DNA from: Escherichia coli
GTDB taxonomy: Bacteria; Pseudomonadota; Gammaproteobacteria; Enterobacterales; Enterobacteriaceae
DNA length: 1,403 bases
Reading direction: 5' to 3' (one strand)
Assembly: GCF_003334355.1 (NCBI RefSeq)
Contig: NZ_QOWP01000088.1
Below the pieces are notes generated by a model. It was not told the DNA's origin and ran no database searches. It saw only the letters and a list, made by a program, of their open reading frames with translations. Within the stretch, counting starts at the first letter, position 1. Each line of letters starts with the position of its first letter. Made by a program: the position numbers and the translations under genes. Positions 1 to 1,403 of the stretch are shown here, piece by piece.

Positions 1-8
1 ATAATGAG

Positions 9-19
9 ATGGACGCTCC
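9..19. repeat. Left subterminal inverted repeat (IRL), ATGGACGCTCC
   Basis: Exact reverse complement of 1374-1384 (GGAGCGTCCAT). The two copies sit near opposite ends of the window, outside the CDS. Confidence 0.7.
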
Positions 20-75
20 AGATTTTACGGTATCAAAGTACCAGACTGGATCGTTGCAATACGTCCTGAAAAATT

Positions 76-80
76 AGGAG
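76..80 (+). promoter_or_regulatory. Shine-Dalgarno sequence (AGGAG) for the transposase
   Basis: AGGAG lies 7 nt upstream of the ATG at 88-90. Confidence 0.65.
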
Positions 81-86
81 CGTCCA
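77..86. repeat. Internal third copy of the IR motif (GGAGCGTCCA), overlapping the RBS, in the same orientation as IRR and inverted relative to IRL
   Basis: 77-86 is identical to 1374-1383 and is the exact reverse complement of 10-19. Confidence 0.6.
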
Positions 87-87
87 C

Positions 88-1113
88 ATGAAAGTATCAA
101 CTCTTGGTATCGACCTGGCAAAGAACGTTTTTCAGCTTCATGGTGTCGATCATGAAGGCCATATTATTTTGCGTAAAAAGCTCACCCGGGCTAAGTTTGT
201 TCAGTTTGTGATTCAACTGGAACCTTGTCTGATTGGCATGGAAGCCTGCTCATCCAGTCATTATTTTGCGCGATTATTCACCCGCTATGGTCATGAGGTA
301 AAACTCATACCTCCGCAGTATGTGAAGCCTTATGTGAAAACGAACAAGACGGATGCAGCAGATGCTGAAGCAATCTGCGAAGCGGTAACCCGTCCGAATA
401 TGCGTTTTGTTCAGATAAAAACCGAAGAGCAGCAGGCCGTTTTAGCGTTACACACTGAACGGGGAATACTTATCCGTGAGCGGATTGCCTGTGCCAATAG
501 TTTAAGAGCCACACTTGCTGAGTTTGGTATTACGATTGCGGCCGGACAAAGCCATTTAACCCGTGAGCTGCCAGCCATTCTGGAGGATAGCGAAAATGGT
601 TTATCTCCCTTTGTCAGAACCAGCATCTACAGACAGTCTAAACATATCCGGGAACTTGAAGAACAAGTTAAACAGGTAGAAGAAGCTCTGGCCTCCTGGT
701 ATAGAACGCAGGAAGCCTGCCAGAGAATGGCCAAAATCCCGGGGGTTGGCATGCTAACGGCCACTTATGTGGTAGCAGCAGTGGGTAATGCCCGACAATT
801 CAGTACCGCAAAGCAGTTCGCTTCATGGCTGGGGCTGACACCAAAGGAACATTCCAGCGGCGGGAAACAGCAACTGGGAGGGATCAGCAAACGTGGAGAT
901 GGATATTTCCGATACCTGCTGGTTCACGGCGCACGCGCACTTACCGCCTGGGTCAACCGAAACGGCGCGGTTGAGGAGAATTCCTGGCTTCAGGGACTCC
1001 TTGAGCGGAAGCACTACAATGTAGCTGTTGTCGCCATGGCGGCAAAAACAGCGAGGATCATGTGGTCAATGTTGTCACACAATACTGAATATCAACCTCG
1101 GCAGCTCGCCTGA
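88..1113 (+). CDS. IS110-family transposase / DEDD recombinase (N-terminal RuvC-like DEDD domain, coiled-coil linker, C-terminal Tnp domain with conserved serine)
   Basis: 341-aa ORF from the supplied track, ATG at 88 preceded by AGGAG at 76-80. N-terminal GIDLAK motif (D9, codon 112-114), GMEACSSSH (E52), KTDAADAEA (D89/D92), acidic/glutamine-rich linker (IRELEEQVKQVEEALA), and C-terminal LTPKEHSSGG...LGGISKRG (S256/S257, S267) match my recollection of IS110/IS1111 transposases such as IS621 and IS4321. No alignment was run. Confidence 0.92.
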   Translation: MKVSTLGIDLAKNVFQLHGVDHEGHIILRKKLTRAKFVQFVIQLEPCLIGMEACSSSHYFARLFTRYGHEVKLIPPQYVKPYVKTNKTDAADAEAICEAVTRPNMRFVQIKTEEQQAVLALHTERGILIRERIACANSLRATLAEFGITIAAGQSHLTRELPAILEDSENGLSPFVRTSIYRQSKHIRELEEQVKQVEEALASWYRTQEACQRMAKIPGVGMLTATYVVAAVGNARQFSTAKQFASWLGLTPKEHSSGGKQQLGGISKRGDGYFRYLLVHGARALTAWVNRNGAVEENSWLQGLLERKHYNVAVVAMAAKTARIMWSMLSHNTEYQPRQLA

Positions 1114-1373
1114 CACAAGGTCAGCCAATCTGACGAGGTGCTGAAAAAAAGTTAACGTCCTGGTAGGTGCAGGTGACTTCAGAAGATGGCAAAACAGGTA
1201 AGACCGCAGGCAGGATACACCGAGAGGTAACAAGGGCAAGTTAGCCCGTAGAGGATGATTGGTACCTGCCTGGCGGATTTCATCATGGTTCGGGATAAAA
1301 ATCCCATCAGAAACCGGATATATGGCTGCACCTACCCGTTTTATTACATAACTGAAGAAAGCATTGCATTCCG
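1114..1373 (+). ncRNA. Candidate bridge RNA / seekRNA of the IS110-family element; strand and exact ends uncertain
   Basis: Seen in sequence: no ORF in the track; 11-bp long-range helix 1162-1172 (GGTAGGTGCAG) with 1326-1336 (CTGCACCTACC); stem 1204-1214 with 1265-1276 (8 bp, one bulged G, then 3 bp) enclosing a 50-nt internal loop with a small hairpin 1234-1237/1244-1247; hairpin 1292-1296/1301-1305 with an AAAA loop; U-rich tract 1339-1345 after the 3' strand of the long-range helix. Established knowledge: IS1111-type elements encode the guide RNA in the right end. No clear sigma70 promoter was found. Confidence 0.45.
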
Positions 1374-1384
1374 GGAGCGTCCAT
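1374..1384. repeat. Right subterminal inverted repeat (IRR), GGAGCGTCCAT
   Basis: Exact reverse complement of 9-19. A perfect 11-bp inverted pair at both ends of a 1.4-kb window is unlikely by chance. Confidence 0.7.
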
Positions 1385-1403
1385 ATATGTTACCTCGCGC
1401 CCG

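What the first reader, a model, noticed from the sequence alone, without database searches (positions are those of the whole stretch)
1..1403. Compact RNA-guided recombinase element: IS1111-type DEDD recombinase plus structured 3' non-coding region
The window has the layout of an IS1111-subgroup element: short 5' leader, DEDD recombinase, then ~270 bp of structured non-coding DNA bounded by subterminal IRs. In this family the non-coding end encodes a bridge/seek RNA whose loops base-pair with the target and donor DNA, so the recombinase is programmable. Whether this element is already catalogued cannot be decided from sequence alone.
Basis: partly seen in the sequence, partly recalled or inferred. 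Interest (0 to 1): 0.8.

Follow-up and report, generated by a model that had tools for sequence, protein, structure and literature searches.

The report
ISEc81: known RNA-guided insertion sequence

Summary

- **Protein.** ORF 88-1113 encodes a 341-aa recombinase with DEDD_Tnp_IS110 and Transposase_20 domains. It is 335/341 identical to the ISEc81 transposase.
- **Prior prediction.** Durrant et al. 2024 (Suppl. Table 5) already list ISEc81 as "IS1111, bridge RNA in RE".
- **Boundaries.** An empty site shows the element is 1386 bp (window 3-1388, with an ambiguous AT). Bases 1389-1403 are host target DNA.
- **Structure of the 3' region.** It is supported by covariation in 42 related elements: 90.8% of cells paired against 71% in shuffles, and 21 of 26 pairs with compensatory changes. 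A covariance model built without the window hits 1181-1335 at 116.5 bits.
- **Guide segments.** Four loop segments track each element's own flanks and ends. In the window, 1224-1232 is complementary to the right flank (TGTTACCTC). Segment 1250-1256 matches the left flank only weakly (GGAT, or AGGGAT with one bulged A). Segments 1277-1283 and 1318-1324 match the element's own left and right ends.
- **Insertion sites.** All seven E. coli copies read (at least three genomic loci) lie at one position in a ~160-bp host repeat that resembles the TwoAYGGAY RNA motif.

Interest is low.

The parts
1..2 (+). AT at the left junction. It is the same AT that ends the element at 1387-1388, and it occurs once in the empty site. 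This is the crossover or overlap position and cannot be assigned to flank or element.
   Evidence: Empty versus occupied sites.
3..8 (+). Left terminal extension AATGAG, outside the subterminal repeat. Relatives have AATGGA here. Bases 4-10 (ATGAGAT) are the predicted partner of the RNA segment at 1277-1283.
   Evidence: Junction listing of 50 elements; guide table.
9..19 (+). Left subterminal inverted repeat ATGGACGCTCC.
   Evidence: Repeat I3, 11 nt, 100% complementary to 1374-1384. The ATGGAC/ATGGTC-type repeat sits at the same place in 49 relatives.
10..86 (+). Leader hairpin. The left subterminal repeat (10-19) pairs with a third copy of the repeat (77-86) that overlaps the Shine-Dalgarno AGGAG (75-79), just before the ATG at 88.
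   Evidence: Repeat I1. Fold -32.7 kcal/mol, z -4.04. The copy next to the Shine-Dalgarno site changes together with the repeat in relatives.
88..1113 (+). Recombinase (transposase) gene, 341 aa, with a DEDD RuvC-like N-terminal domain and a Transposase_20 C-terminal domain. The motif GL-P----SG lies at residues 249-258.
   Evidence: PDB sequence matches to the IS621 and ISCro4 transposases.
1162..1172 (+). 5' arm of the outer stem (GGTAGGTGCAG). It pairs with 1326-1336.
   Evidence: Repeat I5, 11 nt, 100%; folds. The helix is 84% paired, with 5 of 7 pairs changing on both sides. A local alternative, GCG 1273-1275 with UGC 1327-1329, is not excluded.
1181..1335 (+). Core of the bridge/seek RNA gene: a conserved 5' block (1181-1206), the target-binding loop (1207-1272) and the donor-binding loop (1273-1329).
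   Evidence: Covariance model R1, built without the window: 116.5 bits, E 1.8e-29, model positions 1-156 of 156, every pair standard.
1207..1272 (+). Target-binding loop.
- Closing stem: CAGGCAGG 1207-1214 with CCTGCCTG 1265-1272.
- Inner closing pairs: ACC 1219-1221 with GGT 1261-1263.
- Central hairpin: GGGC 1234-1237 with GCCC 1244-1247.
   Evidence: All 8 stem pairs change on both sides among 42 sequences. The central hairpin is 96% paired.
1224..1232 (+). Guide for the right side of the target. GAGGUAACA is complementary to top-strand TGTTACCTC (window 1388-1396). The match extends to 11 of 12 over 1221-1232 against 1388-1399.
   Evidence: repeat I6. Family test: longest exact match to own flank has mean 7.0, to other elements' flanks 3.1.
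1250..1259 (+). Guide for the left side of the target: AGAGGAU followed by the conserved GAU. It has the same sense as the left flank ...CAGGGAT. Only GGAT is contiguous. Six pairs (AGGGAT) form if one A is bulged out.
   Evidence: window 4, family median 6. ISYen1 has GUAGGGAUGAU without the extra A. All 7 E. coli copies read carry the extra A.
1277..1283 (+). Donor-loop 5' guide AUUUCAU. It is complementary to the left end ATGAGAT (window 4-10) with one G-U pair.
   Evidence: Relatives pair AUUCCAU with ATGGAAT. ISYen1 pairs AUUUCAU with ATGAAAT perfectly. Own-versus-other discrimination is weak (5.9 against 5.3).
1287..1315 (+). Inner stem of the donor loop, GGUU 1287-1290 with AACC 1312-1315. 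It encloses the hairpin GGGAU-AAAA-AUCCC (1292-1305).
   Evidence: The helix is 100% paired, and 2 of its 4 pairs change on both sides. Model alignment.
1318..1324 (+). Donor-loop 3' guide AUAUAUG. It has the same sense as the right end plus the first flank base (1383-1389).
   Evidence: In relatives this segment follows the right end plus 2-6 flank bases. Examples: L047 11 nt, L049 9 nt, L057 9 nt. Own mean 7.2, other 4.1.
1326..1336 (+). 3' arm of the outer stem (CTGCACCTACC).
   Evidence: repeat I5.
1364..1369 (+). TTGCAT, the -35 half of a promoter that exists only when the two ends are joined. Sixteen nt further on, TAT (1386-1388) plus AAT (3-5) makes TATAAT.
   Evidence: Computed junctions: window 9 of 12; 43 of 50 family members reach at least 9 of 12, mostly TTGGCA-16/17-TATAAT. 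No + strand promoter-like site is found inside the linear window.
1374..1384 (+). Right subterminal inverted repeat GGAGCGTCCAT.
   Evidence: repeat I3.
1385..1388 (+). Right terminal extension ATAT. Its last AT is the ambiguous overlap.
1389..1403 (+). Host target DNA (GTTACCTCGCGCCCG), not part of the element. It is the right half of a hairpin in a ~160-bp E. coli repeat.
   Evidence: It is contiguous with the left flank in the empty site. It is identical in all 7 copies read.

Best explanation
The window is a complete copy of ISEc81, or a very close isoform. ISEc81 is an insertion sequence of the IS1111 group of the IS110 family.

**What it encodes.** It encodes a DEDD/serine recombinase. 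Downstream of that gene it encodes a ~155-175-nt structured RNA of the bridge-RNA/seekRNA kind.

**Inferred working, by analogy with ISEc11 and IS621.**
1. The RNA is made from the recombinase transcript and binds the recombinase.
2. One internal loop of the RNA reads the target. Segment 1224-1232 pairs with the top strand to the right of the insertion point (T-GTTACCTC). Segment 1250-1256 pairs with the bottom strand to the left (AGGGAT).
3. A second loop reads the element's own joined ends. Segment 1277-1283 pairs with the left end. Segment 1318-1324 pairs with the right end and the first flank base.
4. The element leaves as a circle. The end-to-end joint of the circle creates a TTGCAT-16-TATAAT promoter that drives the recombinase and the RNA.
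5. The circle is inserted, in one orientation and without target duplication, after ...ACAGGGAT in a hairpin loop of a ~160-bp host repeat.

**Shown here:** identity, boundaries, target site, RNA structure by covariation, and the guide-to-flank correspondence across the family.

**Inferred only:** transcription and processing of the RNA, its binding to the recombinase, circle formation and catalysis.
For: **Identity.**
- Pfam and NCBIfam hits.
- 335/341 identity to the ISEc81 transposase from the source data of PMC11187229, and 69% identity to ISYen1.
- ISEc81 is listed as 'RE, IS1111' in Suppl. Table 5 of PMC11208160.
- PGAP names the gene 'IS110 family RNA-guided transposase'.

**Mobility.**
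- 180 of 5426 complete E. coli genomes carry it. In 176 records the best copy is at least 99% identical.
- Copies read lie at yegH-relE, dusC-yohP and ybaP-copA. Two further copies have a left flank next to lysO.
- All are at the same position and in the same orientation in the same repeat.

**RNA structure.**
- On 42 elements, 90.8% of cells are paired against 71.0% in shuffles.
- The covariation score is 0.569 against 0.185 in shuffles (0 of 500 reach it) and 0.07-0.12 when partners are slid.
- 21 of 26 pairs change on both sides.
- The independent model hit scores 116.5 bits. The same model hits ISYen1 at 118 bits.

**Guides** (lengths are longest exact matches).
- Own-flank matches far exceed matches to other elements' flanks: right guide 7.0 against 3.1, left guide 5.5 against 2.9.
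- Wrong-strand controls stay at background, 2.8-3.2.
- The window's right guide matches 9 nt perfectly, and 11 of 12 when extended.
- ISEc81 and ISYen1 keep the scaffold but differ in stem sequence, with compensating changes, and in the right-side guide.

**Junction promoter.** It is conserved in 43 of 50 elements.

**Published experiments.** For the relatives ISEc11, ISPa11 and ISKpn4, PMC11187229 shows that the 3' region is essential for circle formation and transposition, that the RNA co-purifies with the transposase, and that it can be reprogrammed.
Against: - No expression, binding or transposition data exist for this element, here or in the papers searched. The three papers that mention ISEc81 are survey listings.
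- The left-side guide matches the observed target poorly: 4 contiguous bases, against a family median of 6.
- The donor 5' guide is too conserved across the family to discriminate own from other ends (5.9 against 5.3).
- The outer stem competes with a local GCG/UGC pairing that cannot be resolved by covariation.
- The covariation controls do not fully remove the effect of shared ancestry.
- Rfam has no matching family, so membership rests on a model built here.
Confidence: 0.9

Rival explanations
1. The 3' non-coding region works only as DNA, as recombinase-binding sites or end architecture. No guide RNA is involved, and the matches to the flanks are by-products of repeated insertion into similar sites.
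For: No transcript was measured. No + strand promoter-like site lies within the linear element ahead of the region. The subterminal repeats show that the protein or the complex must also recognise DNA ends.
Against: - The helices keep pairing through compensatory changes and G-U pairs on the + strand. The covariance model hits the + strand only.
- The guide segments are the variable parts and follow each element's own flanks, in a strand-specific way, across unrelated targets.
- In ISEc11 the region works in trans as RNA (PMC11187229).
Confidence: 0.03
2. The copy is a stranded or crippled element that no longer moves. Its spread among E. coli genomes would reflect vertical inheritance and homologous recombination of the surrounding repeat, not transposition.
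For: - The left-side guide carries an extra A and matches the target over only 4 contiguous bases.
- The left-end guide needs a G-U pair.
- Only a few loci are occupied, and only 180 of 5426 genomes carry it.
- Two copies have chimeric flanks, as homologous recombination would produce.
Against: - The ORF is intact with the catalytic motifs.
- Copies at three or more different loci are more than 99% identical, with precise and identical junctions.
- An empty allele of an occupied locus exists.
- The guides are identical in all copies read.
Confidence: 0.05
3. The RNA from the right end is mainly a regulator, either of recombinase expression or of host genes next to the repeat, and not a targeting guide.
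For: A strongly structured, conserved RNA sits next to a recombinase gene. That gene's own leader is also tightly folded over the ribosome-binding site. Solo copies of a related small RNA (Ssr9 of ISPpu9) are reported in PMC12288879 (abstract).
Against: The variable loop segments correlate with the insertion-site flanks and the element's own ends, which a regulator would not need. The architecture matches experimentally validated seekRNAs.
Confidence: 0.02

Closest known systems
ISEc81 (ISfinder entry; IS110 family, IS1111 group)
   Same: The recombinase is 335/341 identical and the same length. It is found in E. coli. The entry is already listed with a predicted right-end bridge RNA.
   Different: There are six amino-acid differences (I26T, A91T, S154N, S167G, W288R, E296K, written window to ISEc81). 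The nucleotide entry and its stated ends could not be compared. By the empty site, the window's last 15 bp are target DNA.
ISYen1 (Yersinia enterocolitica)
   Same: - 69% protein identity.
- Same ends (TAATGAAATGGACGCTCC ... GGGAGCGTCCATATA).
- Same RNA scaffold, 118 bits with model R1.
- Same kind of left-flank guide (AGGGAU) and a left flank ending AGGGAT.
   Different: - The right-side guide differs (GAGCCGCC against GAGGUAACA), and the stems differ with compensating changes, so a different right half-site is predicted.
- ISYen1 lacks the extra A in the left guide.
- Its left-end guide pairs perfectly with its own left end.
ISEc11 and its seekRNA (Siddiquee et al. 2024, PMC11187229)
   Same: - IS1111 type, with a 339-aa transposase, subterminal repeats and a 3' non-coding region.
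- The guide complementary to the top strand lies 5' of the guide complementary to the bottom strand.
- The matches overlap at the insertion point.
- The circle junction forms a promoter.
- There is no target duplication.
   Different: The target differs (GTGAAAATACTG). ISEc11 is experimentally validated; ISEc81 is not. Identity between the two proteins was not measured here.
IS621 bridge RNA (Durrant et al. 2024; Hiraizumi et al. 2024)
   Same: - A two-loop RNA, one loop for the target and one for the donor, each reading both strands around a short shared core.
- Guide extensions that match the recombinant junctions resemble the 'handshake guides'.
- The C-terminal half of the protein matches the IS621 transposase 8wt6 (E 1.5e-7).
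   Different: - In IS621 the RNA lies in the left end, upstream of the gene, and the order of the guides is reversed.
- IS621 has only 2-3-bp subterminal repeats and a CT core.
- Here the overlap is T or AT, and the repeats are 11 bp.
IS4321 / IS5075
   Same: They fall in the same recombinase cluster in Durrant's clustering. They are IS1111 type with 3' RNA and subterminal repeats, and they insert into a repeated sequence in one orientation.
   Different: Protein identity is about 40%. Their target is the terminal inverted repeat of Tn21-family transposons (title of the paper cited), not a chromosomal repeat.

Membership tests
IS110 family, IS1111 group | N-terminal DEDD (RuvC-like) catalytic domain | tested here: met
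   PF01548 at residues 6-146, E 1.2e-14. D9, E52, D89 and D92 are invariant in the alignment with ISYen1 and ISXpo1.
IS110 family, IS1111 group | C-terminal Transposase_20 domain with the GL-P----S(T)G motif | tested here: met
   PF02371 at residues 211-289, E 4.4e-24. GLTPKEHSSG lies at 249-258. The motif is as defined in PMC11187229.
IS110 family, IS1111 group | Curated family model above its cut-off | tested here: met
   NF033542 scores 358.4 bits against a cut-off of 140.
IS110 family, IS1111 group | Subterminal inverted repeats of 7-17 bp with short terminal extensions | tested here: met
   11 bp, 100% complementary, 9-19 and 1374-1384. The extensions are 6-8 nt on the left and 2-4 nt on the right, depending on where the AT is assigned.
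IS110 family, IS1111 group | The longer non-coding region lies downstream of the recombinase gene | tested here: met
   275 nt downstream against 85 nt upstream.
IS110 family, IS1111 group | Site- and orientation-specific insertion without target duplication | tested here: met
   Seven copies from at least three loci have identical junctions. The empty site differs only by the element, with a 2-nt ambiguous overlap.
IS110 family, IS1111 group | Circular intermediate whose junction forms a promoter | not testable with these tools
   Sequence only: joining the ends gives TTGCAT-16-TATAAT. 43 of 50 relatives reach at least 9 of 12.
ISEc81 (same IS name) | Near-identical transposase (isoform level) | tested here: met
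   335/341 identical, no gaps.
ISEc81 (same IS name) | Nucleotide identity and ends as in the ISfinder entry | not testable with these tools
   The ISfinder nucleotide entry is not available here.
Bridge RNA / seekRNA of IS1111-type elements | Structured RNA gene in the right end, conserved and supported by covariation | tested here: met
Bridge RNA / seekRNA of IS1111-type elements | An internal loop with one segment complementary to the top strand and one to the bottom strand of the target, top-strand match first, overlapping at the insertion point | tested here: met
   Family-wide own-versus-other test. In the window the right guide is 9 nt perfect. The left guide is only 4 contiguous, or 6 with a bulge. 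The two overlap at the T of GGGAT|G.
Bridge RNA / seekRNA of IS1111-type elements | A second loop complementary to the element's own ends (donor) | tested here: inconclusive
   The 3' segment follows the right end plus flank (7.2 against 4.1). The 5' segment is complementary to the left end but is too conserved to discriminate (5.9 against 5.3). ISYen1 and ISEc81 show matching changes.
Bridge RNA / seekRNA of IS1111-type elements | The RNA is expressed, binds the recombinase and is required for transposition | not testable with these tools
   Shown for ISEc11, ISPa11, ISKpn4 and ISPst6 in PMC11187229, not for ISEc81.
Rfam RNA families | Match to a curated family at its gathering score | tested here: not met
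   The only hit in the window is a chance mir-611 match, 20.2 bits against a gathering score of 90, inside the ORF.

The most novel reading that the evidence does not exclude
The ISEc81/ISYen1 clade may be specialised on AGGGAU/AYGGAY-type hairpin loops of TwoAYGGAY-like structured repeats. On this reading the ~160-bp host repeat is not a passive landing pad. It would be a partner of these elements, for example a non-autonomous relative or a mimic of the element end.

Three observations point this way. The subterminal repeat itself begins AUGGAC, which fits AYGGAY. The first loop of the repeat is AUGGAU. The ISYen1 flank also places AGGGAT in a hairpin.

If true, this would give a first functional context to the orphan TwoAYGGAY RNA motif.
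Probability: 0.1. Interest if true: 0.5.

Novelty: already known. Interest (0 to 1): 0.2.

Why it matters
It matters little as a discovery. ISEc81 is in ISfinder, and a right-end bridge RNA was already predicted for it. The mechanism of the family was established in 2024.

The work here adds specifics that could be used:
- The true ends of the element (1386 bp).
- Its natural target, ACAGGGAT|GTTACCTC, in a TwoAYGGAY-like repeat.
- A base-by-base assignment of the four guide segments and stems.
- An imperfect left guide, with one extra A compared with ISYen1.
- A conserved leader hairpin that hides the ribosome-binding site.

These would help anyone who wants to test or reprogram this E. coli-native IS1111-type system, or to curate its database entry.

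Tried and rejected
- **Rfam scan of the window.** It found only a chance mir-611 hit inside the ORF. No bridge- or seek-RNA match appeared, so a model was built here.
- **Scan of one genome per species with a 3-protein alignment.** ISYen1 was obtained from the plasmid collection instead.
- **First reading of the left-flank guide.** An exact 7-mer CGTTTTA at 1337-1343 matches the target 7-13 nt left of the junction. It was rejected because it lies outside the conserved loop and has no counterpart in relatives.
- **Sense of 1318-1325.** I considered that ATATATGG is complementary to the right end CCATATAT (repeat I2). The palindromic ATATAT makes this ambiguous in the window. Relatives show that the segment has the same sense as the right end plus flank.
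- **K-12 annotation.** The dusC-yohP region lists no repeat feature, and the repeat's first hairpin (exact 18-mer) is absent from that K-12 stretch, so the repeat could not be named from annotation. My recollection that it may be the 'RSA' repeat is untested.
- **Similarity between the host repeat and the element.** A BLAST comparison found nothing beyond the 9-nt guide match.
- **Minus-strand ORFs in the non-coding region** (54 and 50 aa). They were not pursued, because the relatives' alignment has indels that are not multiples of three.
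Full report
**1. What is in the window**

The window holds one long ORF, 88-1113 (+), of 341 aa.
- Pfam finds DEDD_Tnp_IS110 at residues 6-146 and Transposase_20 at 211-289.
- NCBIfam NF033542, "IS110 family RNA-guided transposase", scores 358 bits against a cut-off of 140.
- The catalytic D9, E52, D89 and D92 and the motif GL-P----SG (residues 249-258) are present.
- By sequence, the C-terminal half matches the solved IS621 and ISCro4 transposases.
- An 11-bp perfect inverted repeat, ATGGACGCTCC at 9-19 and GGAGCGTCCAT at 1374-1384, lies just inside both ends.
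- The 275-nt stretch after the stop codon folds better than shuffled sequence: z -2.57 for 1114-1388 and z -3.78 for 1160-1338.

**2. Where the element really starts and ends**

The sequence occurs in 180 of 5426 complete E. coli genomes. In 176 records the best copy is at least 99% identical.

I read seven copies. They lie between yegH and a relE remnant, between dusC and yohP, and between ybaP and copA. Two further copies have lysO on the left and yohP on the right.

An unoccupied dusC-yohP allele reads ...GCGCGTTTTACAGGGAT|GTTACCTCGCGCCCG.... Occupied sites read ...ACAGGGAT-AATGAGATGG... and ...GTCCATATAT-GTTACCTCG....

The element is therefore 1386 bp, window 3-1388 or 1-1386, since one AT is shared. 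There is no target duplication. Window 1389-1403 is host DNA. All copies sit at the same position and in the same orientation.

**3. Identity**

The source data of Siddiquee et al. 2024 (PMC11187229) contain the ISfinder transposase set. The ISEc81 protein there is 335/341 identical to the window's protein. ISYen1 is 69% identical.

Durrant et al. 2024 (PMC11208160), Suppl. Table 5, lists "ISEc81 / RE / IS1111". That is a bridge RNA predicted in the right end. Their clustering puts ISEc81 with ISYen1, ISEch3, IS4321 and IS5075.

Only three other papers mention ISEc81. The one I opened lists it only in a genome-survey table. The element and its RNA prediction are already catalogued. It has not been studied experimentally.

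**4. Is the 3' region a structured RNA gene?**

Rfam has nothing for it, so I tested the question directly.

A scan of one genome per species gave 80 relatives at 46-55% protein identity from many Proteobacteria. Forty-nine of them have recognisable subterminal repeats of the ATGGAC/ATGGTC type about 80 nt before the start codon. They also have a 220-340-nt 3' region.

Forty-one of these 3' regions, plus the window, align well (A4). RNAalifold finds the same helices as the single-sequence fold.

Counting pairs on that MAFFT alignment gives:

| Measure | Observed | Shuffled | Partners slid |
|---|---|---|---|
| Cells paired | 90.8% | 71.0% | not compared here |
| Covariation score | 0.569 | 0.185 (0 of 500 reach it) | 0.07-0.12 |

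Twenty-one of 26 pairs change on both sides. This includes all eight pairs of the stem that closes the first loop.

A covariance model built from the 41 relatives alone (A5, R1) hits window 1181-1335 on the + strand at 116.5 bits. The E-value is 1.8e-29, the match is full length, and every pair is standard. The next best hit in the window scores 3.9 bits. The same model hits ISYen1 at 118 bits.

**5. Anatomy in window coordinates**

| Feature | Coordinates | Notes |
|---|---|---|
| Outer stem | 1162-1172 with 1326-1336 | A local GCG/UGC pairing, 1273-1275 with 1327-1329, is an unresolved alternative |
| Conserved 5' block | 1181-1206 | |
| Loop 1 closing stem | 1207-1214 with 1265-1272 | |
| Loop 1 inner pairs | 1219-1221 with 1261-1263 | |
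| Loop 1, 5' strand | contains 1224-1232 | |
| Loop 1 small hairpin | 1234-1247 | |
| Loop 1, 3' strand | contains 1250-1259 | |
| Loop 2, 5' strand | contains 1277-1283 | |
| Loop 2 stem | 1287-1290 with 1312-1315 | Encloses the hairpin 1292-1305 |
| Loop 2, 3' strand | contains 1318-1324 | |

**6. Do the loops read the flanks?**

In the window:
- 1224-1232 (GAGGUAACA) is the exact complement of T-GTTACCTC at 1388-1396. The match is 11 of 12 when extended to 1221-1232 against 1388-1399.
- 1318-1324 (AUAUAUG) equals the right end plus the first flank base.
- 1277-1283 (AUUUCAU) is complementary to the left end ATGAGAT with one G-U pair.

Across 39 elements with usable flanks I compared each element's loop segments with its own flanks and with everyone else's. 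Values are mean lengths of the longest exact match.

| Segment and partner | Own | Other | Own is the row maximum |
|---|---|---|---|
| 5' strand of loop 1 vs complement of right flank | 7.0 | 3.1 | 28 of 39 |
| 3' strand of loop 1 vs left flank, same sense | 5.5 | 2.9 | 27 of 39 |
| Three wrong-strand or wrong-side controls | 2.8-3.2 | about 3.0 | 0-1 of 39 |
| 3' strand of loop 2 vs right end plus first flank bases | 7.2 | 4.1 | 23 of 39 |
| 5' strand of loop 2 vs complement of left end | 5.9 | 5.3 | 6 of 39 |

The 5' strand of loop 2 is complementary to the left end in most elements. That part is too conserved to discriminate own from other.

This is the two-loop logic of bridge RNAs. The top-strand match comes before the bottom-strand match, as reported for IS1111-type seekRNAs.

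In several relatives the left-target guide runs on into the element's left end. In most relatives the right-end guide runs on into the right flank. This resembles the "handshake guides" of IS621. That last point is an analogy, not a test.

**7. The one imperfect feature**

In relatives the left-target guide is the 6-7 flank bases that precede a conserved GAU. In the window it is AGAGGAU, while the flank is CAGGGAT. Only GGAT is contiguous, 4 against a family median of 6.

ISYen1 has GUAGGGAUGAU at this place, and its own left flank ends AGGGAT. ISEc81 therefore carries one extra A. With that A bulged out, six pairs form with AGGGAT. All seven E. coli copies read have the extra A.

Whether this lowers activity is unknown.

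**8. ISEc81 compared with ISYen1**

The two share the RNA scaffold. They differ in the stem of loop 1, CAGGCAGG/CCUGCCUG against CAAGUGAG/CUCACUUG, which is compensatory. They also differ in the right-target guide, GAGGUAACA against GAGCCGCC. This is the kind of natural retargeting described for ISEc11 and ISXne4.

**9. How it most likely works**

The linear element has no + strand promoter-like site. Joining the right end to the left end gives TTGCAT, a 16-nt spacer, then TATAAT (TAT from 1386-1388 plus AAT from 3-5). Such a junction promoter scores at least 9 of 12 in 43 of 50 family members, mostly TTGGCA-16/17-TATAAT.

Published work on ISEc11 shows circle formation, a junction promoter, an RNA that co-purifies with the transposase, and an RNA requirement in cis or in trans.

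The inferred cycle is:
1. Excision as a circle.
2. Expression of the recombinase and the RNA from the junction promoter.
3. RNA-guided recognition of the joined ends and of ACAGGGAT|GTTACCTC.
4. Strand exchange at the shared T or AT.

None of these steps was measured for ISEc81.

**10. Rivals**

- A DNA-only role for the 3' region is hard to reconcile with compensatory changes, G-U pairs, a + strand-only model hit and strand-specific guide matches.
- A dead element is unlikely, given the intact ORF, the more than 99% identical copies at several loci and an empty allele. The weak left guide and the few occupied loci leave some room for low activity.
- A purely regulatory RNA would not need loop segments that follow the insertion flanks.

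**11. Verdict**

The element is already known as ISEc81, an IS1111 group member with a right-end bridge RNA predicted in 2024. Interest is low.

What is added here is a detailed map, the natural target and three side observations:
- the TwoAYGGAY-like target repeat;
- a covarying leader hairpin over the ribosome-binding site;
- the extra A in the left guide.

Noticed in passing
L004 417-575 (empty site); flanks of the window in L001, L003, L086-L090: The host target is a ~160-bp E. coli repeat with AAATCGCCG...CGGCGATTT ends. It aligns end to end with Rfam TwoAYGGAY (RF01731) but below threshold: 28.5 bits against a gathering score of 43. ISEc81 sits immediately after the second loop, AGGGAU. 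The first loop is AUGGAU, and the element's own subterminal repeat starts AUGGAC.
   Followed up: partly
window 10-19 with 77-86: A third copy of the subterminal repeat lies over the Shine-Dalgarno sequence. It pairs with the left repeat in a leader hairpin of -32.7 kcal/mol, z -4.0. In relatives this copy changes together with the repeat (L014 GGCGACCA, L060 GGAGCCATCCA, L045 AGGAGTCC, L047 GGGTCC). It probably masks the ribosome-binding site.
   Followed up: partly
L087 and L089 (strains KOr019 and XH992): These ISEc81 copies have a left flank next to lysO and a right flank next to yohP. The two genes lie in unrelated neighbourhoods in the other loci read: yohP is next to dusC in L003, L004 and K-12 L085. 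The chimeric flanks point to a large rearrangement between two copies of the element or of the repeat.
   Followed up: no
window 1250-1256; L092 1859-1869: The ISEc81 left-target guide GUAG-A-GGAUGAU has one extra A compared with ISYen1 (GUAGGGAUGAU). Without it the guide would match the target AGGGAT perfectly. All seven E. coli copies read carry it.
   Followed up: partly
L092 (Yersinia enterocolitica plasmid NZ_CP016932.1), right junction near 1997: The right-target and right-end guides of ISYen1 predict a right flank TGGCGGCTCAC. That is roughly the inverted complement of its left flank GTGCTCCGCC, so the target would be a hairpin with an AGGGAT loop. The actual right flank on this plasmid is AAGCGACTTGG. 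This copy has probably lost its original right flank.
   Followed up: no
L091 2420-2849 (E. coli plasmid NZ_JBSQBR010000002.1): This is a decayed relative of ISEc81 next to an IS3 fragment. Window 221-305 is joined directly to 1013-1361, at 88-93% identity. It keeps both target guides but has an altered right-end guide.
   Followed up: yes
L001 2995-3000 (left flank of the window's own locus): The window's own locus has ...ACAGGAAT at the left flank. The six other copies, and the empty site, have ...ACAGGGAT. This is a single G-to-A difference two bases from the junction.
   Followed up: no
window 1389-1403: All full-length E. coli hits cover 1-1403 only because the last 15 bp are conserved target DNA. 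A catalogue entry with these ends would include target sequence, a problem PMC11187229 describes for some ISfinder entries. The ISfinder entry itself could not be checked.
   Followed up: no
L085 (K-12 MG1655, dusC-yohP): The repeat's first hairpin (exact 18-mer GCCCACATGGATGTGGGC) is absent from this K-12 region. Only 3319 of 5426 genomes match at least 80% of the joined dusC-yohP flank query, which includes the repeat. The landing pad itself therefore appears to be variably present.
   Followed up: partly
window 961-1018: A weak Rfam match to the animal microRNA family mir-611 (20.2 bits against a gathering score of 90, E 0.25) lies inside the recombinase ORF. I treat it as chance.
   Followed up: yes
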